A stretch of DNA of 64,000 nt from Phyllosticta citribraziliensis (taxonomy: Eukaryota). The position numbers were made by a program, and so were the translations under genes. Shown here piece by piece: positions 8,494-60,974 of the stretch (position 1 is its first letter; the number at the start of each line of letters is the position of its first letter). The DNA lies in NCBI RefSeq assembly GCF_038025025.1, contig NW_027117341.1, positions 2,170,001 through 2,234,000 on the forward strand, written 5' to 3'. The notes beneath the pieces were generated by a model. It ran no database searches, was not told the DNA's origin, and saw nothing but the letters and a program-made list of their open reading frames with translations.

Positions 8494-9067
8494 TGCTGCG
8501 GGTTACCTCTGCGCCAGAAGTGTGAACTGAAGCAGGGGCGAGAAGCAAGAGAGGGAGACAGAGCATCACCGGGAGGGCGAGAGAATTAAACAGCGAGTTT
8601 CTTCAAACCTAAATCGACGTGTCCAAGAGTGGGGACGCGATCCAGAAGGTTGTGCTGCCAGCTAAACTTTGCCAGAATCATCAACCCAGTTTAGCACAAC
8701 CAGTACAACTATCATACCACAAACAGTAGGTCGCTCATGTAACTACCTTTCCGCTCACAATACAAGCTACGAATTAGAAAATCCAGAAAACAAGCTCGCA
8801 AACAATTTAACAAACAAGGGAGCTTGACACAAGCCATATGTCTATCAGAAGCTCGAGAAGACGAGCAGCAGGTAGATCCAGATTCAGCCGCGGCCGGCAG
8901 ACCGCACAGTGGATCGACCAGGCACCAAGTTCGTGAACCCGTAAGAGGAAAAGCTGCCGATGTAGAGACGGAGGAGCTGTATATTCAGTTGCAAAGCAAA
9001 CAGCGGAGAGCTGCGTGGTGGGTTGATCCGCGGTCGTCACAGCGACATTGCCGCTGCATTCTGATTG

Positions 9068-10678: not shown

Positions 10679-11203
10679 CCAAGGGCCAAGGCGGAAGCGG
10701 GAGGGAGCCTGGAAGATAAAGCTCCAGGAGATGATAATTGACCAGGATAGCCATGCGATGATCGAAGCCAGCTTCTAGCAAGGAATCATCCGCAGGGAAT
10801 GAGCCATTGTAGATACAACGACAGGCCAAATTGGCGGGAAAGAGAGAAATTGGCAATAACCAAAACATGAGTTATAGACACGCGCCGAGGCTGTCAGAAG
10901 AGCGATAAGAGGAGCGTTGAATCTAAAAAGAAGCGGTGGCTAGCTGGTCAGATCGCGGATCAACCAGGCACCAAGCCCGTGCTGTAGCCTACGGGACAAG
11001 GAATCGAGCTAGAAAAAGACCGGGGAAGGTGGTAGTGTGCTGAGCTGGGGAGCAAGCAGCAGCGACTAGTCTGGTGCATTACTTCGCACCCGTCGCAGCG
11101 ACGCCGGGTCATGGGCTGCGGTCGCAGAGAGTGGAGCTTCGTCGAAAGTGCTGGAAGTGAAGAGCATGACGGCGTCGGCGACGGGGCAGTGAGGCTGGCT
11201 CAC

Positions 11204-21602: not shown

Positions 21603-23801
21603 ATGGCCAACAAGGTTGTCCGGCTGCTGGTCTTTTACCTCGCTCTGGCGAGCGCTGGTCCGATCCCAGATCGACATCACCACCCTCACGGCCACAACAT
21701 TGTCGACGTCGCTCCTCCACATGGTCATGGCCATGGCCATGGTCCAGGTCACGGACCACTCGTTCCTCGAGACGAACCTGCACCTGCGGAGCCTCCCCCA
21801 GCCGACCCTCCCGCCCCAGCTGATTCTCCTGCACCAGCTGATCCCGCTGTCCCGGCACCCTTGAATCCTGTATCCGCTGCTCCAAACGCCACCAATGATG
21901 CCACAAAGCAAGACATTGATGATGGTGTTGACGACGGCGGCGACGAATATATAGACGATGGCGAGGATGATGGGACTGACCTCGAGGCAAGTAATACCAA
22001 CACCAACGGTACCGACCTGGACGCGAGCACTGCCAACACCAACGGCACAAACGATATCAACGCCGTCTGGTTCAAAAAGGGCAAGTTTGGCAAAAAGATG
22101 TTCGGCAAGAAGAAGGGCTTTGGCAAGAAGATGTTTGGCAAGAAGATGTTTGGCAAGAAAAAAGGCTTCGGCATGGGTTATGGCGGCGGCGGCGGCGGCT
22201 ACGGCAAAGGCTACGGTAAAGGATACGGCGGCTTCAAAGGCGAGGCGGAGTACGACATCAGAGGACCGCAAATCGAATACGGCAAAGGCTACGGCGGCGG
22301 CGGATACCGCGACCGCATTGAGATGCCAAAGGGCGGCTATGGGCCCGGTGGTAACTATGGCGGCGGCGACATCAACCTGGACATTGAGCTTGGCGGCGAC
22401 CGCTACACGAGCCAAGGCGGCGGCTCCAAGTGCGAGTCGTGCGAGGCCAAGGGCGGCTACAATGCTGGCTACAACGCAGGCTACAGAGAGAATCGACGAA
22501 TTGGCGGCGGGGGCAGCATTGGAGGAGGAGGAGGAGGAGGGTACCGCGCAGACCGCCGCGAAGGGTACAACAACAATCGCGAAGGGAATAACAACAATCG
22601 CGAAGGGTACAACAACCGCGAGTACAACAACAATCGAGAGGGAGAGGGCGAATCCAACAGAGGTGAGGACTGGCGTCCTGCGATTGAGGACCGCACAGGT
22701 GCCCCTGGACAAAAAGTCCGTCGACGTTCCCCCTCGGCTGAAACGAGTCTACTAGATGTGCGCCAACCCGTCCAGGAACGGCCCGCCCCTGCCCCTCGAC
22801 CTGCCCCGGAAGTCCAACCTGCCCCACAGCCGCAGCGCCCTGCTGCCCCAGAAGTTCGCCCTGCGCCTGAGATTGTTCCTGTTCCGGTCATTGTCCGACC
22901 GGCCCCTGAGGTCCAGCCTGCTCCCCGACCTGAGCAGCCGGCTCCGAAACCCGCCCCTGAGCAACCCGCCCCTGAGCAACCCGCCCCCAGACCTGCTCCA
23001 GTTCCCGAACAGCCTGCTCCAGAGGTTCGTCCCGCTCCTGCTCCCGTCCAACCCGCTCCGGAAGTCCGCCCTGCTCCTGAACAAGGGGGTTATCGGGCGG
23101 ACCAAAAGGAAGGAGCTGGTGCTGGTGGAGAGGGCGCTGGCAGTGGAGGAGCATGGGCAGGTATCGGTTTAGGAGCAGGCGCAGGAATTGGAGGCTATGG
23201 CGAAGGGCAGGGACGGTCATGCAGCGGCTCATCATGTCGTCAGATCCAATATGCTCCGTCCGCGCCAGGTGGCTGCGGCGGCGAAGGCTGTCAAGCACAA
23301 AAGGCCCCCTCCGCCCCATCAGCTCCGAATGGTCCATCTGGGGGGTCCGGGGGATCCGGAGGAAATGCAGGCTCTGGGGGGAACGCGGGCTCTGGAGGAA
23401 ATGCTGGCTCTGGAGGAAATGCTGGGGCAGGAGGCTCCGCCGGGGCTGGAGGGTCTGGTGGGAACGCAGGGGCTGGAGGACATGCGGGGGCCGGAGGAAA
23501 TGCTGGGGCAGGAGGTTCTGCCGGGGCTGGAGGAAATGCTGGGGCTGGAGGCTCTGGTGGGAGCGGCGGCTCCGCTGGGGGTGGAGGCTCTGGTGGGAAC
23601 GCTGGCGCCGGAGGGAAAGGCGGATCGGGCGGTGCAGGAAATGGAGCACCAGGGGGACCAGGGGGGCCCGGAGGGCCATGCCAGCGCGGTCCGAATGGCG
23701 AGCCATGTACGCCGGGAAAGCCAGGGGAAAACGGAGCACCAGGGGGCGGCGGCGGGGGCGCAGGCGGGGCTGGTTCTGCTTGGAAGCCGCCGAAGTTGTA
23801 G
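21603..23801 (+). CDS. Secreted modular low-complexity repeat protein (His-, Lys/Phe/Gly-, Tyr/Gly-, Pro/Ala- and Gly/Ala-rich blocks; collagen-like tail)
   Basis: 732-aa ORF. Signal peptide MANKVVRLLVFYLALASA; HGHGHG; KKMFG/KKGFG repeats; GYGK; REG(Y/N)NNN; PAPEV/PAPEQ; GGNAG(S/A); Gly-X-Y tail. TATAAA at about 21462. Confidence 0.85.
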   Translation: MANKVVRLLVFYLALASAGPIPDRHHHPHGHNIVDVAPPHGHGHGHGPGHGPLVPRDEPAPAEPPPADPPAPADSPAPADPAVPAPLNPVSAAPNATNDATKQDIDDGVDDGGDEYIDDGEDDGTDLEASNTNTNGTDLDASTANTNGTNDINAVWFKKGKFGKKMFGKKKGFGKKMFGKKMFGKKKGFGMGYGGGGGGYGKGYGKGYGGFKGEAEYDIRGPQIEYGKGYGGGGYRDRIEMPKGGYGPGGNYGGGDINLDIELGGDRYTSQGGGSKCESCEAKGGYNAGYNAGYRENRRIGGGGSIGGGGGGGYRADRREGYNNNREGNNNNREGYNNREYNNNREGEGESNRGEDWRPAIEDRTGAPGQKVRRRSPSAETSLLDVRQPVQERPAPAPRPAPEVQPAPQPQRPAAPEVRPAPEIVPVPVIVRPAPEVQPAPRPEQPAPKPAPEQPAPEQPAPRPAPVPEQPAPEVRPAPAPVQPAPEVRPAPEQGGYRADQKEGAGAGGEGAGSGGAWAGIGLGAGAGIGGYGEGQGRSCSGSSCRQIQYAPSAPGGCGGEGCQAQKAPSAPSAPNGPSGGSGGSGGNAGSGGNAGSGGNAGSGGNAGAGGSAGAGGSGGNAGAGGHAGAGGNAGAGGSAGAGGNAGAGGSGGSGGSAGGGGSGGNAGAGGKGGSGGAGNGAPGGPGGPGGPCQRGPNGEPCTPGKPGENGAPGGGGGGAGGAGSAWKPPKL

Positions 23802-24218
23802 AAATGATCAGCATTATATAGCGTTAGGTACTTCTTGGTCTTGTCTTTAATATCCTTCAATCAAGGCTTTCTCTTCACTGGGTTGGATTCGAAGTGTGTT
23901 GGATGCTCCCTAGAACCAGTGGGTGAATTCGTCACTGATACTGAATAAAAGGTGGAGTTACAGCGACGTACTGATTCGTAGCACAGGTTGGTAAAGTCTT
24001 TTCGTCTGGCATTGGCAGACGAATTGAATATGCGCTGCTCGAAGATGTCCCTTCGTTGTCTCGAGGTTCTCTAAGTACACCCCTTGATCTTTGCTACCAT
24101 TCTGTGCCTCAACTCCTCGTCACAATCCAGCATTGCTTTAAATCTTTCGCAACTACCGCATCTACAGGATCAGCCAGCCATCGCGTCTCTCAGTAGCGCC
24201 AGACTGTTATTACTTGAC

Positions 24219-26126
24219 TCAACTCACGGAGTAGTAATTTTGAATCTTATGAGCCGCCGGAGGAACACTGTCATTGATGTGGTCGTCGTGATCCTGCTGG
24301 TCGTAGAATGTCAAGCCACAACTGCACACCCAGGCCTCCGCAACAACTGGAGGGAACTGAGCTTCATTGCAGTCGTCAAGATGGTCTTGGAACGCTTGGA
24401 ATCCGGCCTCAAGCGACTCTGAACAGTAGCCGCAAGCTGGAGCAACTGTCTTCTCCTTCTTCTTTCCCTTGTCTGCCCCTTTCATCGGAACATTCCAGTC
24501 GGGGCTCGTCCTGTCAAAGTAGCTGACCATGCGCAAAATGGCGTCGTGATTGTGGACTTTGTACTTCTTCGCGAGATGCATGAATCGGGCCAGTGGGACC
24601 CAGGACCATCCATATCCTGGATTCTCCAATAAGCGTTCCTGCTTTATGGCATACTGTGCCTTGGCAAGAAGCTCTTTGTTGCTTGCCAGCGGTTCCAGCT
24701 TTGTCAGAGCGTGCGCGTTGGCCCAATCGTCGCTTTTGCGGATCTTGAACAGCTTCCAATTCTCGTTCTTCTTCTCAATGTGGACGAATTCCTTGCACTC
24801 GCGCACATCGAGGCCATCACGGTATCGAGCATGCCAGTAGTTACGCTTGTGTTCATAGGATCCAGATTCTTTCGGCTGCAAATTCATTAGTATTTGTAAA
24901 GAAACCCGTGCATTCAAGTAGACTTACCTCGATACCCCACGAATCCGAAGAGTCTTCAGAGCCACTGCTCGATGTTGAAGGAGCGCGCATTCTCTTGGTT
25001 CCACGTGCTGGCTCTCGCCGAGAAGTTGCACTACTAGAAGTGCCGGGGCCCGCATTGCCCATGAAGGTACTCATGCTTCTAGTGACACGGCTGCTCGCTT
25101 GCGGCATGGTTTTTTTTTTCACGGGAGCGTCGAGCTGGAGGCTGCTTTATCGAGGCTGCTGGGCTTTCTGAGGCCGATACTCTGGCCCGATCTCTGGAGC
25201 TCAGAACTCTTTCCCCGTCATGGCGTGTGGAAGAATCTTTCTCAACTGATGACCGGCTGAACTCGCGATCTACTGTGCTCTGATGAGCTGCCTCGCCAAA
25301 CTTGGAAATCAGATCATCCTCCAGAGTGGGAATCGCAGAATCCTCGTCGTTGAAGGCATTGCGTAGAGAGGCTCGGAAAATTGGCTTCAAAGCACCGCTG
25401 GCTTTCAACGCGGTGTCTTGGGTACCCGACTTGGCTGATGTCTCACGCTCATCTTGCGTGGGCGAGACAGAGACTTCAAAACCGCCAATCCTGCGAAGCA
25501 ACTTGCGAGGGCGCGAGGAGGATGGCGAGTCTTCAGCAGCTGGCATTCCAATGCCCATGGCATCCGGGTTGCTTGTGTCGTTGGAAGCAGAAGGCACTCG
25601 CTGCGCAATGCTCTTATGTTTGGCCCGTGATGCTGCGCCTAGACTCGGTTTGGAGCTCCTCAAAGCTTCCAACGCCTTTGAAGTTTCTATCACTTTTGCC
25701 ATTGCATCTTCGAAGCCCTTTTCGTAACCGTTCTCATACCCCATCTTGTATTGTCTTGCTATGAGGCAGGCAAGTTCTTCATTCGAGCGAGCCATCGTGG
25801 CTTGCTCGCGCTCAGGCGTGGATGGCCAAGTGACGTGATTCAGCTCCTTCAGGCGGCGCGCTGCCTCGTGAGAAATCTGGCGCGAGGTCCTCGTTGAATC
25901 GATGTCTTTGAAGCTCGGAATGCGAAACCCACGATCGCGCGACTGTTCCAAGAGCCATTCGGCAGCCTGATCGCGACTTTTGAAGATTTTCGGACGATCG
26001 CTGGGAGAGACGATGGCGAAGGCCGCGGCCCTGCGCGCCCAATCAACCACCTCGTCTGCAATCACGATCAGTGAGAAGAGCTTGCAAAAAGAGTGAGCTT
26101 GAAGTTTTACCAGGGTTCAAGCTCAT
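24219..26126 (-). CDS. Gene A: N-terminal helical domain + GYxxGYxxG + KilA-N/APSES-like domain + two Zn-finger-like motifs; apparent frameshift at an A10 run
   Basis: ATG at 26126; introns 26056..26110 and 24876..24927. Motifs KMGYENGYEKGFEDA, KIRKSDDWANAHAL...WSWVPLARFMHLAKKYKV, CGYC..H..C and CSC..H..H. Removing one base from T10 (25110-25119) fuses ORFs 25079..26065 and 24853..25122. Confidence 0.65.
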
Positions 26127-26455
26127 CGTGGTCGATCGCCGTGGCGGAAATTCGTGCTAGAGACAAAACAAGAGAGCAGAGCCAGGCTCGAGGAGCGACA
26201 GGCTGCACGGGAGACTGCAAGCAAAGCGAAAGGTCTTGTTCGCTATGTGAAAGCGCACGAAGTGAGGTGAGGTAGAAGAGGAGGCCGTCGTTGGTGGTAT
26301 GAAGGTCTGAAGGTTGGAAGATCATCACTGGTGATTTTGCGACAACTGAGCCGACATCAAAAACACGCAAGACAGGCCCCCCCATCGAAAATCGGACACA
26401 GCGAGCGCACCGGAAGTACCTGCTCCGCCCAGAACCAGCGGGAGAAGTCGAGGGG

Positions 26456-26940
26456 TCGATTGAGGAATCGAGACGTCGAATTGCGACTTGAAGGCATTTT
26501 TTCCTCGCCTCATTCGCACTGCCTAGCGGCTTTTCGTCTGCCATTGCCAGACGTAATCCGTCCTTCTGAGAGGAACACCGAGAAAGCGGCCAATGCGACG
26601 GCTGTCCCGCCTCGTAAAACTCCCCATCATTCAAGGACAAGTCGCGAGAGCAACGCGCCACGACTGGAAGGCATTTTTTGTCTCGCCTTTTGCGCCAGCC
26701 GACTCGATCGAGGGAATCACTCGTCACGCTCAAACGTCCCTCTCCCCCCGATTGAAGACCATTCCCGTCGCGTCTAAAGGCTCCTCGATTGAAGACGTTT
26801 CCCATCACCTCCAAAGTCGCGCCCATTGAAGGCATTGCTCGTCACCCCTCCAGGGTGCTCCGCTTGAAGGGTTTTCCTCAGCAAATGGAACGCCTCGATT
26901 GAAGGTATTCCTCGGTCCCGCACTTGAAGCCATTTTTGAA
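26456..26940 (+). promoter_or_regulatory. Cluster of about 9 copies of a (C)GA(T/C)TGAAGGCATT-like motif in the divergent A/B promoter
   Basis: Copies near 26456, 26484, 26661, 26749, 26786, 26823, 26861, 26896 and 26921, all in the same orientation. Confidence 0.55.
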
Positions 26941-27106
26941 AAGCCAGTCTTTTCGTCTGGCACTGCCAGACGTATTCAACCCTGTACTCGGGCCGCGCGG
27001 TTCGCATTCTTTGAATCGATCTGCCTCCAGCACATTACCACCAGGCTTTCTTCGTCCGCAGACCTGGTCCCAGCTTCTCTTGAGCGGATCATCGTGCACA
27101 ACAGCC

Positions 27107-28053
27107 ATGTCTGCCCTCGTCAGGCTTATGGACGATGAGGACGTTGCCAGTAAGCTTGAACCACCTCCATTTCCGTTCAAATGGCTGATTTCTCAAGGAC
27201 TCGACCCAGACCTCTACGAAAAGCTTCAGAGAGGTTTCCAGGAAATCTACACAGAAGGATATGAGTACGGCAAGCGGGTTGGGCTCGAAGAGCGCGTTGA
27301 GATCCACGAGGGCCAAGAGATTGAAGCGAGCAGTGCCGACATCATGGTCCCCATACGTCCAACACACACCGCGTCGGGCTCTCGCATGGAACTGGGATTG
27401 GAGAACACCTCTCTGTTCGTGCCTCGACAGGAATCAAAGGCGCCGTCGGCGCGAAACCAGACCTCCAGAGAAGTAGAGGACGATCCACCCGACGATGACC
27501 AAATCGGATTCGGAGGCGGTTCTGAAGACGACTTTGATCTCGTTGGCCAATCCACTAGCGGGGATGCCATGTTGGGCGAGGACGATATGGACCTCGTACG
27601 TTGGTCGATCTTTTGACCCAAGGTTTACTTACAAGAAACTAGCCCCAAAAAGAGCCGTTCCGCAAGCACAAGAAGCTGTATTACATCAGCAAATTTCCCG
27701 GAGACATCGAGATTAAAGACGCCGATGACTTCATCACGTTGTTCGGCCCTCACTTGGCGAAGAAAGACAAGTTCTTCAAAGTCAGAAGGAGTGATTTCTG
27801 GGGAAACGGACAGGCGTTGACGCATCTGACACCTTTCAGAGGCAACCAAGAGCGAAAGAACAGCCTTTATACGTTTTTAAGACAGGGAGAGCACCAGGAA
27901 GTCAATCAAGGGTGGTTCTACGTGCCGTTGGACCACTTCAAGAAGGCAGCTCAGAAGTTTGGAGTGTTCGACCAGGTCAAGGTGCTGATCGAATATGCAG
28001 AGAGAGAAAAGGGAGACACAGACGACCAGATGATGGAAGATCCGGGATACTAG
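27107..28053 (+). CDS. Gene B: GYxxG motif + acidic linker + KilA-N/APSES-like domain
   Basis: ATG at 27107 (MSALVRL); introns 27150..27197 and 27596..27642. Motifs IYTEGYEYG and FKVRRSDFWGNGQAL...HQEVNQGWFYVPLDHFKKAAQKFGVFDQVKVL, resembling the APSES pattern RRxDxWxNAT..WVPL..LAxxYGV. Confidence 0.7.
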
Positions 28054-28615
28054 GAGATGGTCGCGGAGCGTTGTCTTATTACCTCAATCGAAGTTTCCTT
28101 GTGCGCGAAACGCGCTACCCTTAAAGCGTTAGCTTCACACGTGACCGCGCGTCGGTCGGATCGGGATCGGATCTGATGACGACATTCTCCCTCTGAGCAG
28201 ACCTAGGAAATCCCAAAACTCACCCTCGACGTCCCTCCTCTTGCGCTCATATGTCCCAGCGCTTTCGCCGATTGGAGTGCTTGTGGTGCTCTGCTCACAT
28301 ACATCACCAGCTGGCGGTGGCCTGCCATGTCTGCGTACGTCTTCAAATTCCTTCACTCCGCTTCTTTTCAACTGGCCTGAATCCTCTCGTCCCCAAAATC
28401 CCTTCAATGGAGCGCATCCTCGAATTCCTTTCATTGAGTGCATCCTCGAGTCCCTCCAATTTAGCGCATCCTTCGATCCCTTCGATTGAGCTCGTCATGA
28501 ATTGCCTTCGATCGAAATCTTGAGCTGACCTTTCCGCAGGCGATTTCAGCAGGATAACGCAGATGCAGCAGATGCAGCACATCATAGCCTCCCCTTCAGA
28601 TCCCAGCTCTGCCAA

Positions 28616-30552
28616 ATGTCCGTGGAAGAAATCGTGAAGAGGCATGGCGCAAGCTTCACAGAATGGGTTCGTTCCTTCGAGAAATGAAGCACAGCAGCTT
28701 GGATTGACAACTCGCGCAGTGGAGGCACGTTACTTTTGAGCACCCCGTCCCTTTCGTCGGCATTCCGCCAACAACACAACTTTCTTCCGGCTGGCAGGAG
28801 CTGTATGAGAGTTTTTCGCAGCGTCGGAAGCACAAAGGGCATCCAAAGGAGGGACAAATCGAAACGCCGAAACCTCTGGCATTCGATCCCTGTCAGAAGC
28901 GCTCGTACAGACCCACACATCTTTCGTCCATCAATCATGGCCAAGCAGTCCAACAAGTCGCCGCTCAAATCTACAGTCTGGGCATAGGCACAGCAATAGA
29001 ATCCGGTCCATCATACAAAGAGATGTTAAATTGTTTGGCTATAGCCTGCCTGTCCATTTCGAATGCATCGACAGAGATCAAAAGCGTCGTTCCTGTGCGC
29101 ATAGGATTTGATTACCACGAGCCGTATTTCAAAGCGCCAATACATCCTGCTGTACTCATCAAAACTGCAACTTCTGAGCTGTTATTACCTGTAACAATGT
29201 ACATGTACGGATCTGCGGAGCCTGGACTTGATGCCGAAAAGAGAAAAGGCTGGTCCATCGAAAGCAAGAAATTCAGCACCACACACACGAACACGGCGAT
29301 GTCAGTGGCGAGAAAGTTTTACTCGGTCCCGAACTTACGAATACAAGATGTCATGATGCTATCAAATGCCGAAAACGAGCAGCAAGGCTGGAAGCCCCGT
29401 AGATATGCTGACATTTGGGGCATCAACATGAATTCAGATGCCTATTTATTCAAAAAATCGAAGACAGCAATACACGAAGACATGAATGACATGACAGCAA
29501 TTTTTTCCAGCATTCCAGAACTTACCAAAGAGCTTCTGAGGGTTTCTCCCACATTTACAAGTCGTTTATCGGGCGAAATCCAGCCATTCCAATTGCTCCG
29601 CGTGTTCGAATTCTCTCTGACGGCCAGACATGGTGCCCGGCTCAGGAAATCGAAAAGCTCCCAGAAATGCAATGGCAGAAAGACCTGTGCTCTTTTTGCG
29701 GATTGTCACCTACTGCGTGTTGACGGTGCCAGATACTGTGTACACCACATTAAAACGATCATGATTGTTGGTGACAAGTTCCACTACGGTGCTGGAGAGG
29801 ACAATGGACGCCTGGAATGGCGCATAGCGCAGTACCTGAAGACCGAAAGCGCAAGGAAAGCCGCCCGTTGGCTGTGTGATCGGATTTCAAACCGCACCAA
29901 GGAAGTCTGGATCGTTGATATTGAGTTCCATCGACCACCACATGCCTTCAACTGCGCCGCTCTACCGTGGGAGATGGCCATCTGCTGTCTCCATTCTGGG
30001 AGAACACTTCTGTCGACGAACATAGATTACGGAGGGATGAGCGCACAAGAAGTGTGGACAAGTCTCTACGGCGCAAGAAGCGACAACGGCTGGATTACCT
30101 TTCAGTCTTTCCGCAGCACCTTCACGCGCAGATATGGCGAGACGAAGACGAATGGCCTGGCTCCAAGCACAATCCGGCAGAGGTTGCTCGGTCTGGGCTT
30201 TTCATACGCAACTCACGAATTGATCTCCTACTGCTCCATCGAAGACATGCATGCCATGAAGAGAGTTCTCGACGGGCGAGACGACGTTCACGCTCCATTA
30301 TTATTTCGAAATGCATTACCACCTCGAATTTTCCAGCCAGTTTCGATTTTTGAGCTCGCCAAATGCATGTGCCCGAGAATGTCGCTCACTTTGAAAGAAC
30401 TTTACACGAGACTTTTTCCTGATTCTACGCCTTTACAATTCCATTCTGCCGCAATAGACGCATGGGCACTTCGAGAGATAAGTATGAAATTCAACGATGT
30501 ATTACTTTCAGGGGGAACTTGGTGGTTGGGTGGGCTGAATATAGGTCTCTAG
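28616..30552 (+). CDS. Protein with a C-terminal DEDDh (DnaQ-like) 3'-5' exonuclease domain and a Cys/His cluster; 5' end uncertain
   Basis: Exo I WIVDIEF, Exo II SIEDMHAM, Exo III FHSAAIDAWAL; C..C..C..CVHH upstream. The frame of ORF 29023 is open back to 28720, preceded by an intron-like 28667..28719 and an in-frame ATG at 28616. Confidence 0.75.
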
Positions 30553-30576
30553 CATGTTTTCAATCCAGGTTCATTC

Positions 30577-31297
30577 TCACCTAGCCTCCTTCTTGAAAGC
30601 AGGAGCAAGGTTGGGTTCCCCGCTCTTCTGATCAATCCTTTCGTGAGTAACTACCTCGAGTCAGCGACGAAACTGGGTAATATCGCTGGGTCTCCGGAAT
30701 CAAGAGGTACTGCACATACATACCACGGCCGGAGCGGCTGGATGCCTGCAGAGCTTGGATATTTTCCACCGCTCGAGCGTATCCATCCTCGAAGCCTTTG
30801 TTATATCCGCTCTTGAATTGACCTGCCATGTGGCGGAGTAGATTGCCGTCCACGCTAGCTGAGGCCTGATTTGACGGGCCAGCCACCTGGACCGCCTGGC
30901 TTTGAAGCCTAGGAGCATCCACGGACTGCTGGGGCTCTGTCGTGTTCTGCAATGTGATGAGTCCGGACTTCTTGAGGTCGCTGGCAGCCCAGCGCAAGAT
31001 TGACTGCTGGCATCTGTTCGAATCCCAGCTCTCAAAGGTCGGGAGGTGGAATTCCAACTTGATCAGACTATCCATGAGCCATGTGACAGCGTGGTCGAGG
31101 TCGTCAAACTTCTTGGGGAGTTCTGCGTTTGGCACCTTGATGACATCCTGGATTCTGCGGCTCCATGTCGTCACTGTCTCTGTAGTTGCAGGTGTCAGTC
31201 ATCGGCGGTTTCAATCGACTGTGCTCAAAGTATTACCAAGGTTAAAGTTCTGGAATTCCTGAACGCTGGGCATCTTCTGCTCCATGTTCGAACTCAT
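30577..31297 (-). CDS. Gene A': short paralog of gene A (N-terminal domain + GYxxGFxxGY only; no KilA-N-like domain)
   Basis: ATG at 31297. Intron 31180..31236 has the same position and phase as intron 1 of gene A (NL|E vs NP|D); second intron 30651..30723. WSRR..PKKF..AVTWL..F.LPTF..D.NR matches WARR..PKIF..AAEWL..F.IPSF..D.TR. Contains FKSGYNKGFEDGY. Confidence 0.7.
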
Positions 31298-31902
31298 GAT
31301 AATCTCAAGAGACTTTCCGCAGTGGTGAGAGGGTGTTTGCAAAGACAGCTATCCACAAGGTTAACTCATTACTCGGCCTGGAAGCTTAGTCTTAAACCTA
31401 CCGCTTGAGGTGACTGAGGCCGGTCGACAAGACAGGAACCTTCAGGGACAACACTGGAAGCTTCCCTTTCCGCGAAGGGAAGAGAAGCTTGAAGTTTCGA
31501 GGCCTCGACCGAAGCAGACGCGCGTGTTTGCACCAGGCCGAAGCGCGAACGGATTGCGTTGTTGCAGGCCTGCACTGAGTGGCCACAGAGGACTTTGTTT
31601 GTGAAAAGTCGGCCGAGCCACAAAGTAAGAACCCTCATCGCCTGAAGGTTGAATCAAAAAGACGGTGTTTTATCAATAGGCGCAATGTGCGCCCAAACAT
31701 CGATCACACACGTGACGAAGCACCGCTGCCGGCGTGCGCGTGGCGGACCTTCCGCTCTCAGCGGATCTCATGTTGTCCTTCGTCGTCCCCCCAACGCCCA
31801 TGGCTCAGTACGTCCAACCTCCCGCAGACATTATTAGTCGGGCTGCCTTTCCTCGTCTCTTGAACTGTCCTGGACCATTCTGCCCATTTCAACATCGTGG
31901 CC

Positions 31903-32699
31903 ATGTCTGCTCTACTGGATCTCACGCACTGGATTGAAAACACTGATGGTACGTTCAAAGCAGCCCCAAGCCTGCCAGAAAGAACTGACTGTGACAGGGA
32001 TACCCGAATGCGTGCGCAGCGAACTGCATGCCCGAATCCTAGCCGTGTACAAAGAGGGATATGCCGACGGCCACGAAGTAGCCATCGGCGAAGGGTCCAC
32101 CCAGAGCAACAAATCATATTCTGAGTGCAGCAAAGCCAATAAGGATGCTCGAGGTTCTGGAGATAAGCGCCAGCGACTTGAAGTGGAGTCTTCAGGTCGA
32201 GAAGGGGACATGGAAGATAACACTGTGAAAGGCGCTGAGTACATGGACACCTGGATTGTGGTATGCCAGTGGATATGTTTTCCTTTCAAACAAGCTGACA
32301 TCATTGTGACTTGAGGCAACGGATTCCTGCATCAAATTGAGATGTCGACGTGGCCACAGCCAAGGACAAATTGGCCAGGAATTCGACCTCGGCGAAGTCA
32401 GGACGTGCGACTTCTATGCCGACGGAATGTTGCTCATCCAGCTCATCCATTTATGGCACATCGACTCTGACAAAAAGCTTGAAAACCAGCTCAGGGCTCG
32501 GTTGATGAGTTCCGATCACAAATACACGGACGACGGCCGCATTTGGGTGCCGCTTTTCAGCTACAAGAGAGTTGCGCAAAGTTTTGGCGTCTATGATCCA
32601 GTCGAACGTCTTGTTGAATGCGCAGAGGGGAAAAAGAATTTGGTTGAAGCCTTGGCGGAGGTAGATCGAGCCATCGCTCTCCGTGGTCTGCGTCCATGA
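31903..32699 (+). CDS. Gene B': paralog of gene B (GYxxG + KilA-N/APSES-like domain)
   Basis: ATG at 31903 (MSALLDL); introns 31949..31997 and 32261..32315 have the same phases as in gene B. Motifs VYKEGYADG and EVRTCDFYADG...IWVPLFSYKRVAQSFGVYDPVERLVECAE. Confidence 0.7.
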
Positions 32700-33024
32700 A
32701 TAATGTCAGTGGCGAATAGGCTTTTGCGACGTGGGACAGGAAGTGGACGTACACTGGGCTTTCCATCATTAAGGACGAGGCGAATTAGTCTTCCTCAGCC
32801 CAAGACATCTTGACAGAATTCCTCTCTTTTCTCGCGTTGCTGCTGTGTGATGCGATGTCATTGACGCCCAAGGACTGCAGCGACAGAGGGAGACAGCAGA
32901 GCAGCAAAGAAACAGCACCGAGCAACAGCGAGAGCAATCAACAGGAAAACCACAAATCATTAGACGATTCAAGCCGCTCGAACAAACCACCGACAAAAGG
33001 ACTTTTCAAACACAGCCACCACGC

Positions 33025-34911
33025 CTACCACGACACCTCAATACCCTCCAAATCCCCCTTGGCATCATACTCCTCGACAATCCGCTGCCAGCTGAAAATA
33101 CCATCTCCCCACAGCGCCCTCTTAGCATCCAGCATCTTCTGCTCCAAGCTTTTCTTCCCCGCCGTCCCCTCGTGGTTGAAATACCCCGGCGTACAGCTCG
33201 CGAAAATGGCCAAGCGGATCGCGCGCTTCTGGACCTCCGTCGTCCACTCATTTTCCGCCTGCTTCGACGGCTCGACGACGAGGCTTTTCGGATCGCTGGC
33301 CCGCTGTGCTGCTGTCTTGAGAATGTTGGCCGCGTGCTGCGCTATCATGTCGTACGTAGACGTCAGGTTCGCGGAGCCAACGGCGCCGGAGAGGCCGGGG
33401 ATGATCATGTTGGGAAAGTCGTGCGTCAGGACGCCGTGGAAGGTGCCAAAGTCGGCGGCACCCCATTTTTCCTGGATGTGGCGGCCGCCGCGGCCGACGA
33501 CGGTGATGCCGTTGCGGAAACCCGGCGCCGCTTCGTTGCCCGTGGCGAGGCCGTAGCCCGTCGACAGGATCATAAGGTCCAGCTCGTGCTCGACGCCATC
33601 GACGACGACGCCGCGCGCCGTGAAGCGCTCCAGCCCCTGCCCTTGCGTGTCGACCAGCGTCACGTTGGCCCGGTTAAACGTTGGCAGGTACTCGCTGTGG
33701 AAGGTCGGCCGCTTGCACCACCCGGGATACCACGCCTTGAGCTTTTCGGCCGTCGTTGGATCCTGTACCTGCTGCTCGACGTGCGCGCGCACCTTTTCGG
33801 CGCGCTCAACGTCCAGCTCAAACAGATACTTGGCGTACTCGTCGAAATTCTGCGGCGTGATAGCTTTGGGGCCGCCGACGAGCCCGGCAAACGAGCGATG
33901 CTCGGTCCAGCCGTCGTTGATCAGGTCGACCGGCTCCGGGTCGTTGGACGTGAACTTGTCAAAGTTGTGCCGCCGAGCCTTCTGCCACCCTTTTCCGCTC
34001 GCGACACTGGACCAAGCTTCGGGATTCGTGGGCGCTTGTGGCCGAGGCGTGCAGTAGGAAGGTGTCCGCTGAAACACGTAGAGGTGCTTCGCCCATTTTG
34101 CAACTTCGGGTACGATTTGGACGGATGTTGCTCCGGTTCCCACAATGCCGACTACCTTGTCTTTCAGCTTGACCAGAGATGGATCCACAGGCGAGCCTCC
34201 GGTGTACTCGTAATCCCAGCGCGAGGGATGGAATACATGGCGACTGCGTCTGAAGTCTTCGAATCCTGGAACTTTTGGGGCCTTTGGTGACGTAAACAGG
34301 CCGCTGCCTGTGTAGACGAACTGAGCCGTCACCTCGAAGTCAAGCTTCTCGCGGCCCGGCCCCCGATTCTGCTGCATCTTGACGACCCATCTCTTCTTGG
34401 ATTCATCCCACACCTGGCTGAGGACAGTGGTCGAAAACAGGCCGCGGAGGTTGAAGTGAGCGGCGACGCGCTCGCAGTGCTGGCGAATCTCTTCTCCTGA
34501 CGAGTACTTTTGCTTCGGGACGTATCCCGTCTCCTCGAGGAACGGCAGATAGATGTAGCCCTCGACGTCGCACGTCAGGCCCGGGAAGCGGTTCCAGTAC
34601 CACGTCCCGCCAAACCCGCCGGCCGTGTCGACGAGGCAGATGCCTTTCGGGTCGAATCCGGCCTCGACCAAGCGCCCGGCGAAAAGAAGACTGATGTGGC
34701 CGGCGCCGGTGATCAAAAATTGGACGTCGTCCCCGTCCTTGAGCGCCGGCTCTTGCGATGCCAGGGCCTCATAGTCAATCCATGGATCTGCAGCAAGCCC
34801 GGGAGCGTCTTGGCGGAGGTCGACGTATTGGGCGAAGCCATCGGGCCGGAGGCGCTTGTCGCGCTCTTCGGCGTACTTTTCCTCTAATGCTGATGCGACT
34901 TGAGATGCCAT
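33025..34911 (-). CDS. FAD/NADPH-dependent Baeyer-Villiger-type monooxygenase
   Basis: GGFGGTWYWNRFPGLTCD, VFHPSRWDY fingerprint, VGIVGTGATSVQ, VFQRTPS, WCKRPTFH and LSTGY. Likely ATG at 34911. Confidence 0.92.
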   Translation of the reverse strand: MASQVASALEEKYAEERDKRLRPDGFAQYVDLRQDAPGLAADPWIDYEALASQEPALKDGDDVQFLITGAGHISLLFAGRLVEAGFDPKGICLVDTAGGFGGTWYWNRFPGLTCDVEGYIYLPFLEETGYVPKQKYSSGEEIRQHCERVAAHFNLRGLFSTTVLSQVWDESKKRWVVKMQQNRGPGREKLDFEVTAQFVYTGSGLFTSPKAPKVPGFEDFRRSRHVFHPSRWDYEYTGGSPVDPSLVKLKDKVVGIVGTGATSVQIVPEVAKWAKHLYVFQRTPSYCTPRPQAPTNPEAWSSVASGKGWQKARRHNFDKFTSNDPEPVDLINDGWTEHRSFAGLVGGPKAITPQNFDEYAKYLFELDVERAEKVRAHVEQQVQDPTTAEKLKAWYPGWCKRPTFHSEYLPTFNRANVTLVDTQGQGLERFTARGVVVDGVEHELDLMILSTGYGLATGNEAAPGFRNGITVVGRGGRHIQEKWGAADFGTFHGVLTHDFPNMIIPGLSGAVGSANLTSTYDMIAQHAANILKTAAQRASDPKSLVVEPSKQAENEWTTEVQKRAIRLAIFASCTPGYFNHEGTAGKKSLEQKMLDAKRALWGDGIFSWQRIVEEYDAKGDLEGIEVSW

Positions 34912-35926
34912 TGCCCTGGAGAAATCGTAAACAAGGGAAATATAAACGAGATGTTGTTGCTGTTGTACTGAAGACAGCGATTCACATTTATTCCTCACTG
35001 AGTGGAGAGGTCGTCGGTTGCCGGGCAAGGTTAGATCAGCTCATGGTCGGTCCGTTCGCCGCCACCGTGCCCAAACGGCTACATCCATATCCGCATCCGA
35101 CTGCCGTGGCCCGGAGCTTCGAATGTGAGTGACAATGATGGTCCTCATTTTGGGCTGACGCGTTGAAGGAAAGAGCAATTCAAAAGTGTCAAACTGTCCT
35201 GTGGTTCAGTTCTTCCCTCACTGCTAAACCCAGTATCTTCAACTTTTGCCCGGGAAAAGTAGTTTCTCGCCAAAAGAGAGTGAGGACTTCTTGAGAAGAG
35301 GGCATGCTCGCACTTCGTGTTTGTGATTGGTCGTAGTTGAGAAGCAGTCAAAAGAATTGGCAACAGTTGCAGCTCTTACATCCAACGACAGGTCAAGCAA
35401 GCACATGGCAAGTCACTGACCAAGATTGACTTGGAACGTGTAACAAAGAAAATGTGTGGAGGCGCGGGGGACGATTTGTGGAGAGTGCGAACAACGAGCT
35501 GACATCACATTGAAAAGTGCTACACGAGCGGTTCGCATGATTCAACCCTTGCGATCCATCGTGAGCCACGACGGAGCCCCAACGTCGCACACTCTTGGAC
35601 CACGTCCCCTCTTGGTTGGTAGCGTTCGATTGAGGCCTCGATGGGCAGCTTTTCCCTTGGCCCGCCAGCTGCCCAAAAATCACCGATCGGAATTCTCCTC
35701 CTCGTGTATCGCAAGTGGGCGGGTGGGCGGCCGAAAGCTGGAGGCGAGGCGAGCGCTTCATCCGCCAATTGAACGAGCCAGATTAATACCCGAGCAGGCA
35801 AAGACCGGCTTTGGCAAGAATTTAAAGAAGTCGTGCAATGGCGTTCTGCTGCTGCGGAGCATCAGAATCGTTCAATACGCCATTTTCTGCCCATCTCTTT
35901 TGCATCCTTCAAAGACGCCGTCGACC

Positions 35927-60943: not shown

Positions 60944-60974
<31 letters not shown>

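What the first reader, a model, noticed from the sequence alone, without database searches (positions are those of the whole stretch)
24219..32699. Duplicated head-to-head gene pair with KilA-N/APSES-like domains flanking a DEDDh exonuclease
Seen: the layout is A(-) B(+) Exo(+) A'(-) B'(+). A and A' share an N-terminal domain and first intron. B and B' both start MSAL and share two intron phases. All four carry a GYxxG-type motif. A, B and B' carry a domain with (K/E)(V/I)R..D.(W/Y)...(W/Y)VPL...A..(F/Y).V, each preceded by a phase-0 intron. Established: KilA-N/APSES is a DNA-binding fold of viral origin, normally present in fungi as a few conserved regulators (Mbp1/Swi4, StuA, Xbp1, Bqt4); DEDDh enzymes are 3'-5' exonucleases. 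Inference: an undescribed module of partner DNA-binding proteins plus a nuclease, possibly a selfish, virus-derived, genome-defence or toxin-antidote unit. A' lacks the DNA-binding domain and could act as an inhibitor. The ORF track alone does not show this because of the introns.
Basis: partly seen in the sequence, partly recalled or inferred. Interest (0 to 1): 0.8.

Follow-up and report, generated by a model that had tools for sequence, protein, structure and literature searches.

The report
Genus-restricted paired APSES-like genes in Phyllosticta
A citrus-leaf fungus carries two old head-to-head pairs of genes for a very divergent form of the fungal APSES DNA-binding domain, with an orphan nuclease-like gene between them; it looks like a new lineage-specific branch of a known regulator family, not a proven gene module.

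Summary
The window is from Phyllosticta citribraziliensis. Layout A(-) B(+) Exo(+) A'(-) B'(+), the shared introns and the motifs are all in the sequence. A and A' N-termini are homologous (BLASTP 7e-17).

The domain in A, B and B' is a true but divergent APSES/KilA-N domain. It is missed by Pfam. Its profile hits Mbp1 (E 1.9e-7), and the AlphaFold model (pLDDT 83.7) superposes on PCG2 and Mbp1 at Z 11.2-10.2, against 3.8 for the best unrelated chain.

The family is tiny. Of 1.84 billion representatives, 7 match, and only Phyllosticta capitalensis holds further A-like and B-like proteins.

Exo is expressed and spliced. It is only probably a DEDDh enzyme, and no relative was found anywhere.

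Caveats: A is split by a frameshift at an A10 run; B is unannotated; B and B' introns have no RNA support.

No viral relatives, foreign composition or RIP signature were found. Most likely these are lineage-specific paired DNA-binding regulators, with the nuclease a neighbour rather than a partner.

The parts
25079..26126 (-). A-N: first ORF of gene A (330 aa). Exon 1 is 26126-26111, the phase-1 intron is 26056-26110, exon 2 is 26055-25079 including the stop. It holds the A-type N-terminal domain and the motif GYENGYEKGFED.
   Evidence: Intron joined in an X1 contig. Homologous to A' (7e-17) and to P. capitalensis P0006 (3e-13).
25110..25119 (-). A10 homopolymer where the A-N frame and the A-C frame overlap (both open over 25079-25146). 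One base fewer would give a single A protein.
   Evidence: Direct reading. Two X1 contigs end and begin exactly in this run, so its length in RNA is unknown. P0006 has all three A regions in one 655-aa protein.
24219..25107 (-). A-C: second ORF of gene A, identical to annotated P0002 (278 aa). Exon 25107-24928, phase-0 intron 24876-24927, exon 24875-24219.
   Evidence: identical to P0002. Intron joined in contigs of both runs.
24486..24875 (-). APSES-like domain of A
   Evidence: Alignments A1 and A2. A1 profile against Mbp1, E 1.9e-7.
24267..24437 (-). Cys/His-rich C2H2-like tail of A (CxxC...H...C, then CxC...H..H)
   Evidence: Conserved in P0006 (4e-09). Pfam gives only weak hits (DUF7501 0.016, zf-C2H2_STOP2_C 0.046). 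UniRef's name for it begins 'C2H2-type dom...' (cut off in the listing).
27107..28053 (+). B (283 aa if spliced, unannotated). Exon 27107-27149, putative phase-1 intron 27150-27197 (48 nt, in frame), exon 27198-27595, putative phase-0 intron 27596-27642 (GTACGT..TAG), exon 27643-28053. Motif GYEYGKRVG.
   Evidence: Not found among annotated proteins. Contigs of both runs carry both introns unspliced.
27643..28050 (+). APSES-like domain of B
   Evidence: Mbp1 at E 0.0041 with the single sequence. AlphaFold pLDDT 83.7, pTM 0.79. Z 11.2 to PCG2 (4ux5), 10.8 and 10.2 to Mbp1.
28324..28334 (+). End of the Exo 5' leader exon. It holds the 11-mer GCCATGTCTGC that also surrounds the B and B' start codons. 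Its ATG opens an 8-codon uORF once the leader intron is removed.
   Evidence: 3 matches in 64 kb, at 27104, 28324 and 31900; 0 of 100 shuffles reach 3. Sequence; joint 28334->28540.
28616..30552 (+). Exo, identical to P0001 (627 aa, J3D65DRAFT_602019). Leader intron 28335-28539, exon 28616-28666, intron 28667-28719, exon 28720-30552.
   Evidence: Both introns joined in contigs of both runs.
29899..30549 (+). Putative DEDDh exonuclease region of Exo. VDIE (Exo I) at 29899ff, SIEDMHAM (Exo II) at 30235ff, HSAAIDAW (Exo III) at 30442ff.
   Evidence: Motif places. hhalign to an E. coli DnaQ/RNase T/ExoX/Orn profile covers only the Exo III part (prob 15%, E 0.0017). Local score 29.1 against shuffles 12.75 +/- 2.2, 0 of 150 reach it. 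Atlas leads to RNase_T.
30632..31297 (-). A' (179 aa). Exon 31297-31237, phase-1 intron 31180-31236, exon 31179-30720, intron 30651-30719, exon 30650-30632. A-type N-terminal domain plus GYNKGFEDGY, and no DNA-binding domain. The leader intron 31349-31401 lies upstream of these coordinates.
   Evidence: All three introns joined in X1 contigs.
31903..32699 (+). B' (230 aa with two introns; annotated as P0003, 240 aa, with a third). Exon 31903-31948, intron 31949-31997, exon 31998-32260, intron 32261-32315, exon 32316-32699. Motif GYADGHEVA.
   Evidence: No joined form listed; an X1 contig 31789..32210 carries intron 1 unspliced.
32316..32696 (+). APSES-like domain of B'. It matches only profile positions 32-126 of 129, so the N-terminal strands are not recognisable.
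24000..24021 (.). Copy 1 of the 22-bp palindrome TTTCGTCTGSCAYTGSCAGACG, about 200 bp beyond A's stop
   Evidence: three sites, each matching on both strands; 0 of 100 shuffles give any match.
26532..26553 (.). Copy 2 of the palindrome, in the A-B intergenic region
26951..26972 (.). Copy 3 of the palindrome, about 135 bp before B's ATG
26746..26856 (.). Three tandem 37-nt units with a CGATTGAAG core, in the A-B intergenic region
   Evidence: family D3.
28398..28515 (.). Four overlapping 40-nt copies spaced 26 nt apart, holding the reverse complement of the TTGAAGG core, inside the Exo leader intron
   Evidence: family D1; intron.

Best explanation
The locus encodes a family so far found only in Phyllosticta. 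Its members carry a strongly diverged APSES (fungal KilA-N) winged-helix DNA-binding domain. They sit as two ancient, divergently transcribed pairs, A-B and A'-B'.

Architectures:
- A-type: a novel N-terminal domain, a short G-x3-G helix motif, a long disordered linker, the APSES-like domain and a C2H2-like tail.
- B-type: MSAL, the G-x3-G motif, an acidic linker and the APSES-like domain.
- A': a short paralogue with only the N-terminal domain and the G-x3-G motif.

Shown: homology, fold, gene structures, family range, and expression with splicing of A, A' and Exo.

Inferred: A-type and B-type proteins are sequence-specific DNA-binding regulators that descend from the fungal APSES/MBF lineage rather than from a fresh viral capture. 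They are made from a shared bidirectional promoter, which carries a locus-specific 22-bp palindrome and tandem repeats that could be their own operators. They may pair through the G-x3-G stretch. A' may act as a partner without a DNA-binding domain and so titrate them.

Exo is a separate, expressed orphan gene. Its C-terminal third is probably a very divergent DEDDh 3'-5' exonuclease. I read it as a neighbour that may share some 5' sequence with B-type genes, not as a conserved partner.
For: ORGANISM AND GENE MODELS
-.

PARALOGY
- A-N against A': 7e-17.
- Intron positions and phases are shared.

APSES IDENTITY
- B exon 2 against Mbp1: E 0.0041.
- Three-sequence profile against Mbp1 structures: 1.9e-7, 2.2e-7 and 3.8e-7.
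- The same profile hits three proteins that carry Pfam KilA-N: P0004, P0007, P0008.
- AlphaFold from a five-sequence in-family alignment: pLDDT 83.7.
- Foldseek's top 9 PDB hits are all Mbp1, PCG2 or Bqt4.
- VIA-align Z: 11.2, 10.8 and 10.2; 8.0-7.5 for Bqt4; 5.8 for the Mbp1 NMR model; 3.8 for the next entry, the Swi6 N-terminal domain, and 3.7 for the best unrelated chain.

FUNGAL RATHER THAN VIRAL DESCENT
- Best viral model E 0.046, prob 0.28, against prob 1.00 for Mbp1.
- No hit in viral contigs.
- GC and RIP indices match the flanks.
- Spliceosomal introns are present.

FAMILY RANGE
- 7 of 1.84e9 representatives match at E <= 0.001: 2 from this locus, 2 from P. capitalensis and 3 multi-KilA-N proteins.
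- P0006 of P. capitalensis has the A N-domain (3e-13), the APSES-like domain (2e-9) and the Cys/His tail (4e-9) in one 655-aa protein.

EXPRESSION
- Spliced contigs in two runs.

CIS-ELEMENTS
-.

G-x3-G AS A PAIRING MOTIF ELSEWHERE
- Yae1-Lto1 and FliH (PMC4523923, abstract and passages).
- Weak FliH hit on A-N, E 0.0099.

EXO
- All ten best Atlas feature hits with a family share a family or clan with the best; the five rows shown all carry RNase_T. Score 0.80, a lead only.
- Atlas structure row: TM 0.72 by the target over residues 392-618.
- Exo III region aligned in register to E. coli DEDDh enzymes; 0 of 150 shuffles reach its score.
Against: - Pfam's KilA-N model does not reach any of A, B, B', P0005 or P0006.
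- DNA binding, pairing and regulation are all inferred.
- A is interrupted by a frameshift in this assembly.
- B is in no annotated proteome. Contigs of two runs carry its introns unspliced, which would truncate B before the domain.
- B' has no RNA-supported intron, and its domain lacks the recognisable N-terminal strands.
- P0006 lacks the G-x3-G motif, so the motif is not universal in the family.
- The palindrome is absent from the A'-B' intergenic region.
- For Exo: no Pfam, NCBIfam, PADLOC, PHROGs or PDB sequence hit. hhalign probability is only 15% and covers one motif. The global alignment did not put Exo I and II in register. The AlphaFold model failed (pLDDT 38.5).
Confidence: 0.55

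Rival explanations
1. Decaying remnant. The family is real, but in this species it is being lost. A is frameshifted, B is no longer spliced or translated into a domain-bearing protein, and A' and B' are truncated derivatives. The locus has no present function.
For: - Frameshift at the A10 run.
- B is unannotated.
- Unspliced B and B' in contigs of the two runs.
- B' matches only profile positions 32-126.
- A' lacks the domain.
- The intact one-piece A-like protein is in P. capitalensis.
Against: - All five reading frames are otherwise open with canonical splice sites.
- B's exon 2 is a 136-codon open frame that folds with high confidence.
- A, A' and Exo are spliced correctly.
- The frameshift sits in a homopolymer, where assembly errors are common (general knowledge).
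- Contigs drop rare forms, so a spliced B may exist.
Confidence: 0.2
2. Functional module with the nuclease. A/B proteins target or control Exo as a selfish, defence or toxin-antidote unit.
For: - Tight clustering, with Exo between the pairs.
- Exo's leader exon carries the same 11-mer around an ATG as the B and B' starts.
- Weak similarity of the Exo N-terminus to B: BLASTP E 0.081; 28 of 1000 shuffles reach the score.
- Transcript contigs cover B through to Exo at many places.
Against: - No Exo relative was found in any genome, while A-like and B-like proteins exist in P. capitalensis. The Exo search was word-based, so this is weak.
- No PADLOC or PHROGs family.
- The Exo N-terminus shows no similarity to B' or P0005.
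- No second copy or polymorphism data.
Confidence: 0.08
3. Recent capture from a virus or mobile element. KilA-N plus an exonuclease would be cargo of an integrated giant-virus-like or transposon-like element.
For: - KilA-N is a viral hallmark domain (PMC4862756, passages).
- Atlas feature hits for Exo include animal proteins with Mutator plus RNase_T domains, score 0.80, a lead only.
- A RIP-degraded AT-rich block lies 21 kb away.
Against: - The domain is closer to fungal Mbp1/PCG2 than to viral KilA-N.
- No viral-contig relatives.
- Host-like GC and dinucleotide indices.
- Several spliceosomal introns, conserved between paralogues.
- Self-comparison found no flanking long repeats; the only shared DNA is the short palindrome.
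- No transposase or recombinase among the 23 larger ORFs scanned.
Confidence: 0.05
4. Recognition system. The divergently transcribed, fast-diverging pairs of DNA-binding proteins would work like basidiomycete HD1/HD2 mating-type pairs, or like ascomycete two-gene allorecognition loci. Heterodimers would form only between certain versions.
For: - Head-to-head pairs duplicated in tandem.
- Only about 30% identity between paralogues and between species.
- A shared short motif that could mediate pairing.
- The HD1/HD2 comparison is recalled and comes from no call.
Against: - P. capitalensis clusters at 90% identity hold 6 member sequences each for the A-like and a B-like protein. That argues against hyper-polymorphism within a species.
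- No allele data for this species.
- No binding evidence.
Confidence: 0.05

Closest known systems
Mbp1/Swi4 (MBF/SBF) DNA-binding domain, with Magnaporthe PCG2
   Same: Best sequence match (1mb1 E 1.9e-7) and best structural match (4ux5 Z 11.2 over 98 residues at 2.5 A; 1bm8 Z 10.8). Shared signature: SD.W.N..(I/L).K and G.W(V/I)PL...A...(F/Y)(G/S)V.
   Different: - No ankyrin repeats and no Swi6-binding C-terminus (Pfam finds none in the A/B exons).
- Below Pfam's KilA-N threshold.
- Extra N-terminal strands in the model.
- Found only in Phyllosticta, whereas MBF/SBF is present across fungi (PMC4862756, passages).
- Arranged as head-to-head pairs.
Bqt4 (S. pombe inner nuclear membrane APSES protein)
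   Same: Same fold, Z 7.5-8.0. It shows that an APSES domain can serve as a protein or DNA tether rather than a classical transcription factor.
   Different: No sequence-level hit in the PDB search. I did not test for a C-terminal membrane helix.
StuA/Efg1/Phd1/Sok2 APSES regulators and Xbp1
   Same: Same domain superfamily. PMC4862756 (passages) treats the fungal SBF+APSES proteins as one monophyletic family. The subfamily names used here are partly recalled.
   Different: Those are conserved single-copy regulators. This family is restricted to one genus, very divergent, and has other flanking domains.
Viral and phage KilA-N domains (Pfam PF04383)
   Same: Same superfamily. Weak structural hits to mimivirus and poxvirus KilA-N or N1R/p28 proteins.
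   Different: Best viral hit E 0.046, prob 0.28. No PHROGs hit. No viral-contig relative.
DEDDh 3'-5' exonucleases (RNase T / DnaQ-like, Pfam PF00929)
   Same: Exo has D-x-E, a second acidic motif and H-x4-D in the right order, with spacing of about 110 and 66 residues. The Exo III region aligns in register. Atlas neighbours carry RNase_T.
   Different: No HMM library reaches it. There is a 390-residue N-terminal part of unknown fold. No relatives were found.
Yae1-Lto1 deca-GX3 proteins and FliH
   Same: Repeated G-x3-G spacing in a short helix-like stretch. In Yae1-Lto1 the motif is needed for complex formation (PMC4523923).
   Different: Three repeats here, not ten. No Pfam Yae1_N hit. The motif is absent from the P. 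capitalensis A-like protein.

Membership tests
KilA-N / APSES superfamily | Reaches the Pfam PF04383 gathering score | tested here: not met
   No KilA-N hit at E <= 1 for the 8 exon translations, nor at E <= 0.1 for P0002, P0003, P0005, P0006. In that second scan 3 of 7 proteins hit, all of them outside the A/B family.
KilA-N / APSES superfamily | Significant sequence homology to a solved APSES domain | tested here: met
   Profile A1 against the PDB: 1mb1 1.9e-7, 1l3g 2.2e-7, 1bm8 3.8e-7, 4ux5 0.1. Single sequence: 0.0041.
KilA-N / APSES superfamily | APSES fold (beta sheet packed on a helix-turn-helix with a wing) | tested here: met
   Model pLDDT 83.7. Foldseek's top 9 are all APSES proteins. 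Z 11.2, 10.8 and 10.2, against 3.7 for the best unrelated chain. Only B's domain was modelled.
KilA-N / APSES superfamily | Binds DNA | not testable with these tools
   Needs EMSA, PBM or DAP-seq.
MBF/SBF (Mbp1/Swi4) subfamily | Ankyrin repeats and a C-terminal Swi6-binding region after the DNA-binding domain | tested here: not met
   No Ank family in any A, B or B' exon. A ends in a Cys/His tail. B and B' end just after the domain.
DEDDh exonuclease (RNase_T, PF00929) | Reaches the family HMM | tested here: not met
   No hit at E <= 10 for the C-terminal 248 residues or the whole ORF. None in NCBIfam or PADLOC.
DEDDh exonuclease (RNase_T, PF00929) | Exo I (DxE), Exo II (D) and Exo III (Hx4D) motifs in order | tested here: inconclusive
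   Exo III aligned by hhalign (prob 15%, E 0.0017; 0 of 150 shuffles reach the score). Exo I (VDIE) and Exo II (IEDM) were read by eye only. The global alignment did not place them.
DEDDh exonuclease (RNase_T, PF00929) | RNase H-like alpha/beta fold | tested here: inconclusive
   My AlphaFold model failed (pLDDT 38.5). The Atlas's own low-confidence model (pLDDT 0.45) aligns residues 392-618 to an RNase_T cluster at TM 0.72 by the target.
Yae1/Lto1 deca-GX3 | Ten consecutive G-x3 repeats; Pfam Yae1_N | tested here: not met
   Three repeats at most. No Yae1_N hit.
Conserved A/B + nuclease module (selfish, defence or toxin-antidote) | Components co-occur in other genomes | tested here: inconclusive
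   A-like and B-like proteins are both present in P. capitalensis, on contigs of similar size (2.86-2.88 Mb). Adjacency could not be seen. Exo: only itself among 5782 candidates. No fungal genome DNA was searchable here.
Integrated virus or mobile element | Foreign composition, terminal repeats, viral or transposase relatives | tested here: not met
   GC 0.50-0.54, as in the flanks. RIP indices are normal. Self-comparison shows only the 22-34-bp palindrome. No viral-contig relatives. No transposase among the 23 ORFs scanned.

The most novel reading that the evidence does not exclude
The head-to-head A/B pairs are a two-component recognition or control system built on the APSES fold. A-type and B-type proteins would heterodimerise through their G-x3-G helices and bind the locus-specific palindrome. 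Together they would gate the neighbouring nuclease-like gene, whose leader shares the B-type start sequence. That would make it a genus-specific selfish, incompatibility or genome-defence unit, with A' as the built-in inhibitor.
Probability: 0.08. Interest if true: 0.8.

Novelty: new variant of a known kind. Interest (0 to 1): 0.42.

Why it matters
Fungal KilA-N/APSES proteins are usually described as a few conserved regulators: SBF/MBF, StuA/Efg1-type, Xbp1 and Bqt4 (the names are partly recalled; PMC4862756 passages treat SBF+APSES as one monophyletic fungal family). This locus adds several points:
- The fold has also spawned a genus-restricted, fast-diverging branch that standard domain models miss.
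- That branch has new partner domains and a paired, duplicated gene layout.
- One member (B) is absent from the published annotation.

The locus offers a small, tractable case for asking how a core transcription-factor fold is recruited to lineage-specific functions. It also offers a candidate operator (the 22-bp palindrome) for testing what such divergent APSES domains recognise. If the nuclease link were real, the locus would be far more interesting, but the present evidence does not show that.

Tried and rejected
COMPLEX PREDICTION
- A-N residues 1-140 with B exon-1b residues 1-70: 'no answer' (score 0.20, mark 0.34). No evidence either way.

SEQUENCING RUNS AND CONTIGS
- Sequencing-run search: no RNA holder listed. 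The two holders are 'RNA?' by guess.
- Contig depth was not used to rank genes.
- No joined form for the B and B' introns was listed. Contigs cannot show absence.
- Odd joint 27675->27926 (CT..GC, side 29): not interpretable.

- Whole-genome search of the window's own genome: none held.
- Earlier findings: closed.
- Cluster members: switched off, so no names for P0004, P0007 or P0008.

EXO: SEARCHES THAT FOUND NOTHING USEFUL
- B exon 2 against longer proteins: none of 69 candidates.
- AlphaFold of the Exo C-terminus alone: pLDDT 38.5, unusable, so no fold search was made on it.
- Pfam, PHROGs, NCBIfam and PADLOC on the Exo halves, the A-N domain and the APSES-like exons. Nothing was significant. 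The weak rows (terminase small subunit 0.011, FliH 0.0099, BfmA 0.078) are taken as noise, except that FliH shares the G-x3 repeat.
- PDB sequence search with Exo: nothing. A chitinase row at 0.28 is ignored.

A-N DOMAIN
- Atlas on the A-N domain: no usable hit.

VIRAL COLLECTIONS
- Viral-contig scans with A2 and with the Exo C-terminus: none confirmed.

EXO N-TERMINUS AGAINST B-TYPE N-TERMINI
- BLASTP 0.081 to B. Nothing to P0003 or P0005.
- Shuffle tests: 28 of 1000 for B, 631 of 1000 for B', 171 of 1000 for P0005.
- Too weak to call homology.

FAILED OR INVALID STEPS
- Global alignment A3 of B-type proteins mis-aligned B exon 1 to the domain and was dropped.
- In one search the second half (A-N profile scan) used wrong reading frames and is invalid. 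Only the APSES-profile scan of that call is used.
- Searches failed on frame or coordinate slips and were corrected.

LITERATURE
- Searches: 'KilA-N, APSES, fungi' gave 17 papers. 'KilA-N, exonuclease, fungal' gave 4, all unrelated. 'KilA-N, lineage-specific expansion, fungi' gave 0.
- No listing described such pairs. Only listings were seen, apart from the three papers read in passages.
- No supplements were opened. Supplementary ortholog tables of PMC9073689 might list these genes.

Full report
WHAT THE WINDOW IS

The long ORF in the middle of the finding is identical to an annotated protein of Phyllosticta citribraziliensis (J3D65DRAFT_602019, P0001, 627 aa). This fungus is a Dothideomycete endophyte of citrus.

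The locus has ordinary composition: GC 0.50-0.54, TpA/ApT 0.43 and (CpA+TpG)/(ApC+GpT) 1.4. The last 10 kb of the window, by contrast, is a RIP-degraded AT-rich block (GC 0.23, indices 1.75 and 0.01).

Neighbouring ORFs are ordinary fungal genes: MFS transporter, oxidoreductases, UbiA prenyltransferase, Zn2Cys6 factor, ADH, BBE oxidase. Two ankyrin + SsdA_C ORFs also lie there.

CHECK OF THE OBSERVATION

I read both strands and rebuilt the gene models.
- Exo: 28616-28666 + 28720-30552. Its translation equals P0001.
- A-C: 25107-24928 + 24875-24219. Its translation equals annotated P0002.
- A-N: 26126-26111 + 26055-25079, 330 aa.
- A': 31297-31237 + 31179-30720 + 30650-30632, 179 aa.
- B: 27107-27149 + 27198-27595 + 27643-28053, 283 aa.
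- B': 31903-31948 + 31998-32260 + 32316-32699, 230 aa. Annotated P0003 agrees for 218 of its 240 residues, then uses a third intron.

All eleven introns begin with GT and end with AG.

- A and A' share an N-terminal domain: BLASTP 7e-17, 30% over 141 residues. In both, a phase-1 intron lies just before it.
- B and B' both start MSAL and have a phase-1 then a phase-0 intron. The rest of their N-termini is barely similar: E 0.033; 49 of 1000 shuffles reach the score.
- All four carry a G-x3-G-x3-G stretch.
- A, B and B' carry the (K/E)(V/I)R..D.(W/Y)...WVPL...A..(F/Y).V domain behind a phase-0 intron.
- A six-frame scan with the family profile finds exactly these three copies in 64 kb (first half).

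RNA EVIDENCE

Two public runs of one organism, from two studies, hold the stretch. Their kind is only guessed as RNA. Their contigs carry joined forms that lack short GT..AG stretches, which is what spliced mRNA gives.

Joined forms were seen for:
- both A introns (24876-24927 in both runs; 26056-26110 in X1);
- a 205-nt intron in the Exo leader (28335-28539) and the Exo coding intron, both in both runs. The coding joint is listed as 28665->28719 'cut +1'; I take it as 28667-28719;
- three A' introns (31349-31401, 31180-31236 and 30651-30719, all X1).

No joined form was listed for the two B or two B' introns. Contigs instead carry them unspliced (X1 26111..27676, X2 26514..27731, X1 31789..32210). 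Contigs cannot give strand and they drop rare forms, so this leaves B and B' splicing open rather than refuted.

First, gene A is broken. The A-N frame stops at 25079, and the A-C frame is open from 25146. The two overlap around an A10 run (25110-25119), where one base fewer would fuse them. The annotation calls A-C a separate gene (P0002). Two X1 contigs end and begin exactly inside the run, so its length in RNA is unknown. The P. capitalensis homologue P0006 carries all three parts in one 655-aa protein: the A N-domain (3e-13), the APSES-like domain (2e-9) and the Cys/His tail (4e-9). The one-piece form is therefore the likely ancestral one. An assembly error in the homopolymer is at least as likely as a real split; that is my inference.

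Second, B is in no annotated proteome. A word-based search among longer proteins found nothing (0 of 69 candidates). The exhaustive profile search returned A-C and B' but not B.

WHAT THE DOMAIN IS

Pfam does not see it. PHROGs, NCBIfam and PADLOC do not either.

Sequence evidence:
- B's exon 2 alone finds the Mbp1 DNA-binding domain in the PDB at E 0.0041.
- A profile of the three window copies finds it at 1.9e-7, 2.2e-7 and 3.8e-7, and PCG2 at 0.1.
- The same profile, run against 1.84 billion representatives, gives 7 proteins at E <= 0.001. These are A-C, B', two P. capitalensis proteins, and three proteins with two to seven repeats that Pfam calls KilA-N (P0004 3.2e-32, P0007 1.8e-11, P0008 9.6e-12).

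Structure evidence:
- I built an AlphaFold model of B's domain from a five-sequence alignment. It contained only family members and no canonical APSES protein, to avoid circularity.
- The model is confident: pLDDT 83.7, pTM 0.79.
- Foldseek's nine best PDB matches are all Mbp1, PCG2 or Bqt4. The best has E 1e-3 and prob 1.00.
- VIA-align gives Z 11.2 to the PCG2-DNA complex (98 residues, 2.5 A), 10.8 and 10.2 to Mbp1, and 8.0-7.5 to Bqt4. It then drops to 5.8 (the Mbp1 NMR model), 3.8 (the Swi6 N-terminal domain) and 3.7 for the best unrelated chain.

The KilA-N/APSES reading is therefore correct.

The branch looks fungal rather than newly viral:
- Viral KilA-N models fit much worse (best E 0.046, prob 0.28).
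- No relatives exist in viral contigs.
- The best sequence matches are Mbp1-type. The signature around the recognition helix (SD.W.N..L.K) and the wing (G.WVPL) is the fungal one (the reading of the motif as 'fungal' is from my own knowledge).

HOW WIDE THE FAMILY IS

A search with the five-sequence profile among longer proteins returned four proteins:
- P0002 (this locus);
- P0006 (A-like, 655 aa, P. capitalensis, 6 member sequences);
- P0005 and P0009 (B-like, 330 and 340 aa, P. capitalensis).

According to PMC9073689 (passages), P. capitalensis is the least related of the sequenced citrus Phyllosticta, and P. citrichinaensis is the closest relative of P. citribraziliensis. The family is therefore at least as old as that group, yet identities are only about 25-34%.

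I could not see whether the P. capitalensis A-like and B-like genes are adjacent. Their contigs are of similar size (2.86-2.88 Mb), but no fungal DNA could be searched. Absence from the other species' proteomes is weak evidence, because B itself shows that annotation misses these genes.

EXO

Exo is a real, spliced gene. Its C-terminal third reads as DEDDh: VDIE, then SIEDMHAM about 110 residues on, then HSAAIDAW about 66 residues further.

Support is modest.
- No HMM library or PDB sequence search reaches it.
- My single-sequence AlphaFold model failed (pLDDT 38.5).
- The Atlas feature search gives only RNase_T-bearing clusters, at a lead-level score of 0.80.
- The Atlas's own low-confidence model aligns residues 392-618 to an RNase_T cluster at TM 0.72 by the target.
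- Against a profile of E. coli DnaQ, RNase T, ExoX and Orn, hhalign aligns the Exo III region in register. The probability is only 15%, E 0.0017.
- In my shuffle control the local score was 29.1 against 12.75 +/- 2.2, maximum 20.9; 0 of 150 shuffles reached it. The global alignment did not place Exo I and II.

I call it a probable, very divergent DEDDh domain. The N-terminal 390 residues match nothing.

The only database relative of Exo is itself, 1 of 5782 candidates. This was a word-based search, so distant relatives could be missed.

IS EXO TIED TO THE PAIRS?

One unexpected link exists. The 11-mer GCCATGTCTGC occurs three times in the window: around the B start, around the B' start, and at the end of Exo's leader exon. 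None of 100 shuffles reaches three matches. In the Exo leader its ATG opens an 8-codon uORF after splicing.

The Exo N-terminus also aligns weakly to B: E 0.081; 28 of 1000 shuffles reach the score. It does not align to B' or P0005.

This hints that Exo's 5' end derives from a B-type gene, but it is not enough to claim it.

Against a conserved module:
- no Exo relative was found in P. capitalensis, which has the A-like and B-like proteins;
- no defence or phage family hit any part.

CIS-ELEMENTS

A 22-bp palindrome, TTTCGTCTGSCAYTGSCAGACG, occurs three times and only here. Two copies lie in the A-B intergenic region and one lies 200 bp beyond A's stop. None of 100 shuffles gives any match.

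The A-B intergenic region also has three 37-nt tandem units. The Exo leader intron has four repeat copies spaced 26 nt apart that share a TTGAAGG-like core in the opposite orientation.

Apart from the palindrome, the locus has no DNA-level self-similarity. The A/A' and B/B' duplications are therefore old.

MECHANISM I COMMIT TO

A-type and B-type proteins are DNA-binding regulators of a lineage-specific programme.
- They are co-expressed from a bidirectional promoter.
- They possibly bind the palindrome.
- They possibly pair through the G-x3-G stretch. That motif mediates Yae1-Lto1 complex formation and occurs in FliH (PMC4523923).
- A' would be a competitor that lacks the DNA-binding domain.

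All of these steps are inferred. The fold, homology, gene structures and expression are shown. Confidence in the identity of the parts is about 0.85. Confidence in the mechanism is about 0.4.

Rivals are decay of the locus, a true nuclease module, a mobile or viral origin, and a recognition system. They are listed with their tests in the rival explanations.

NOVELTY

Pfam misses the family. It was absent from the listings of my three literature searches. It has a domain architecture and gene layout not described for the known fungal KilA-N groups (PMC4862756, passages).

It is a new variant of a known kind. Interest is moderate.

Noticed in passing
window 6988-8502 (-) and 9299-10774 (-): Two tandem ORFs combine ankyrin repeats with a C-terminal SsdA_C domain (single-strand DNA deaminase toxin A, C-terminal; E 1.6e-17 and 2.6e-11). 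A bacterial-toxin-type deaminase domain in duplicated fungal genes may deserve its own look.
   Followed up: no
window 54000-64000: AT-rich block (GC 0.22-0.26) with extreme RIP indices (TpA/ApT 1.75; (CpA+TpG)/(ApC+GpT) 0.01). The finding's locus shows none of this.
   Followed up: partly
window 24000-24021, 26532-26553, 26951-26972: A locus-specific 22-bp palindrome, TTTCGTCTGSCAYTGSCAGACG, flanks gene A and precedes B. It could be an operator or a relic of terminal repeats.
   Followed up: partly
window 27104, 28324, 31900: The identical 11-mer GCCATGTCTGC lies at the B start, the B' start and the end of the Exo leader exon. In the Exo leader it gives an 8-codon uORF after the leader intron is removed.
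   Followed up: partly
window 32687-32753: A contig joint with CT..AC ends marks a minus-strand intron overlapping the 3' end of B'. It is probably the 3' UTR of the minus-strand gene at 33025-35040 running antisense into B'.
   Followed up: no
window 25110-27676: One X1 contig runs without a break from A exon 2 (with A's intron removed) across the whole A-B intergenic region and into B exon 2. Either the divergent transcripts overlap, or a long antisense RNA covers B.
   Followed up: no
window 21525-23801 (+): A 758-codon open frame of very low complexity (Gly/Pro/Ala/Asn repeats, GC 0.62), with long open frames on the other strand too. No Pfam family.
   Followed up: no
protein P0004 (not in the window): An unnamed 1873-aa protein in the representative library carries seven APSES/KilA-N domains in a row. 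P0007 and P0008 carry two each. Multi-APSES proteins are unusual.
   Followed up: no
window 26107-26841 (-): A 244-codon open frame with no recognisable features lies in the A-B intergenic region, in a different frame from A's start. It is probably a by-product of the repeats.
   Followed up: no
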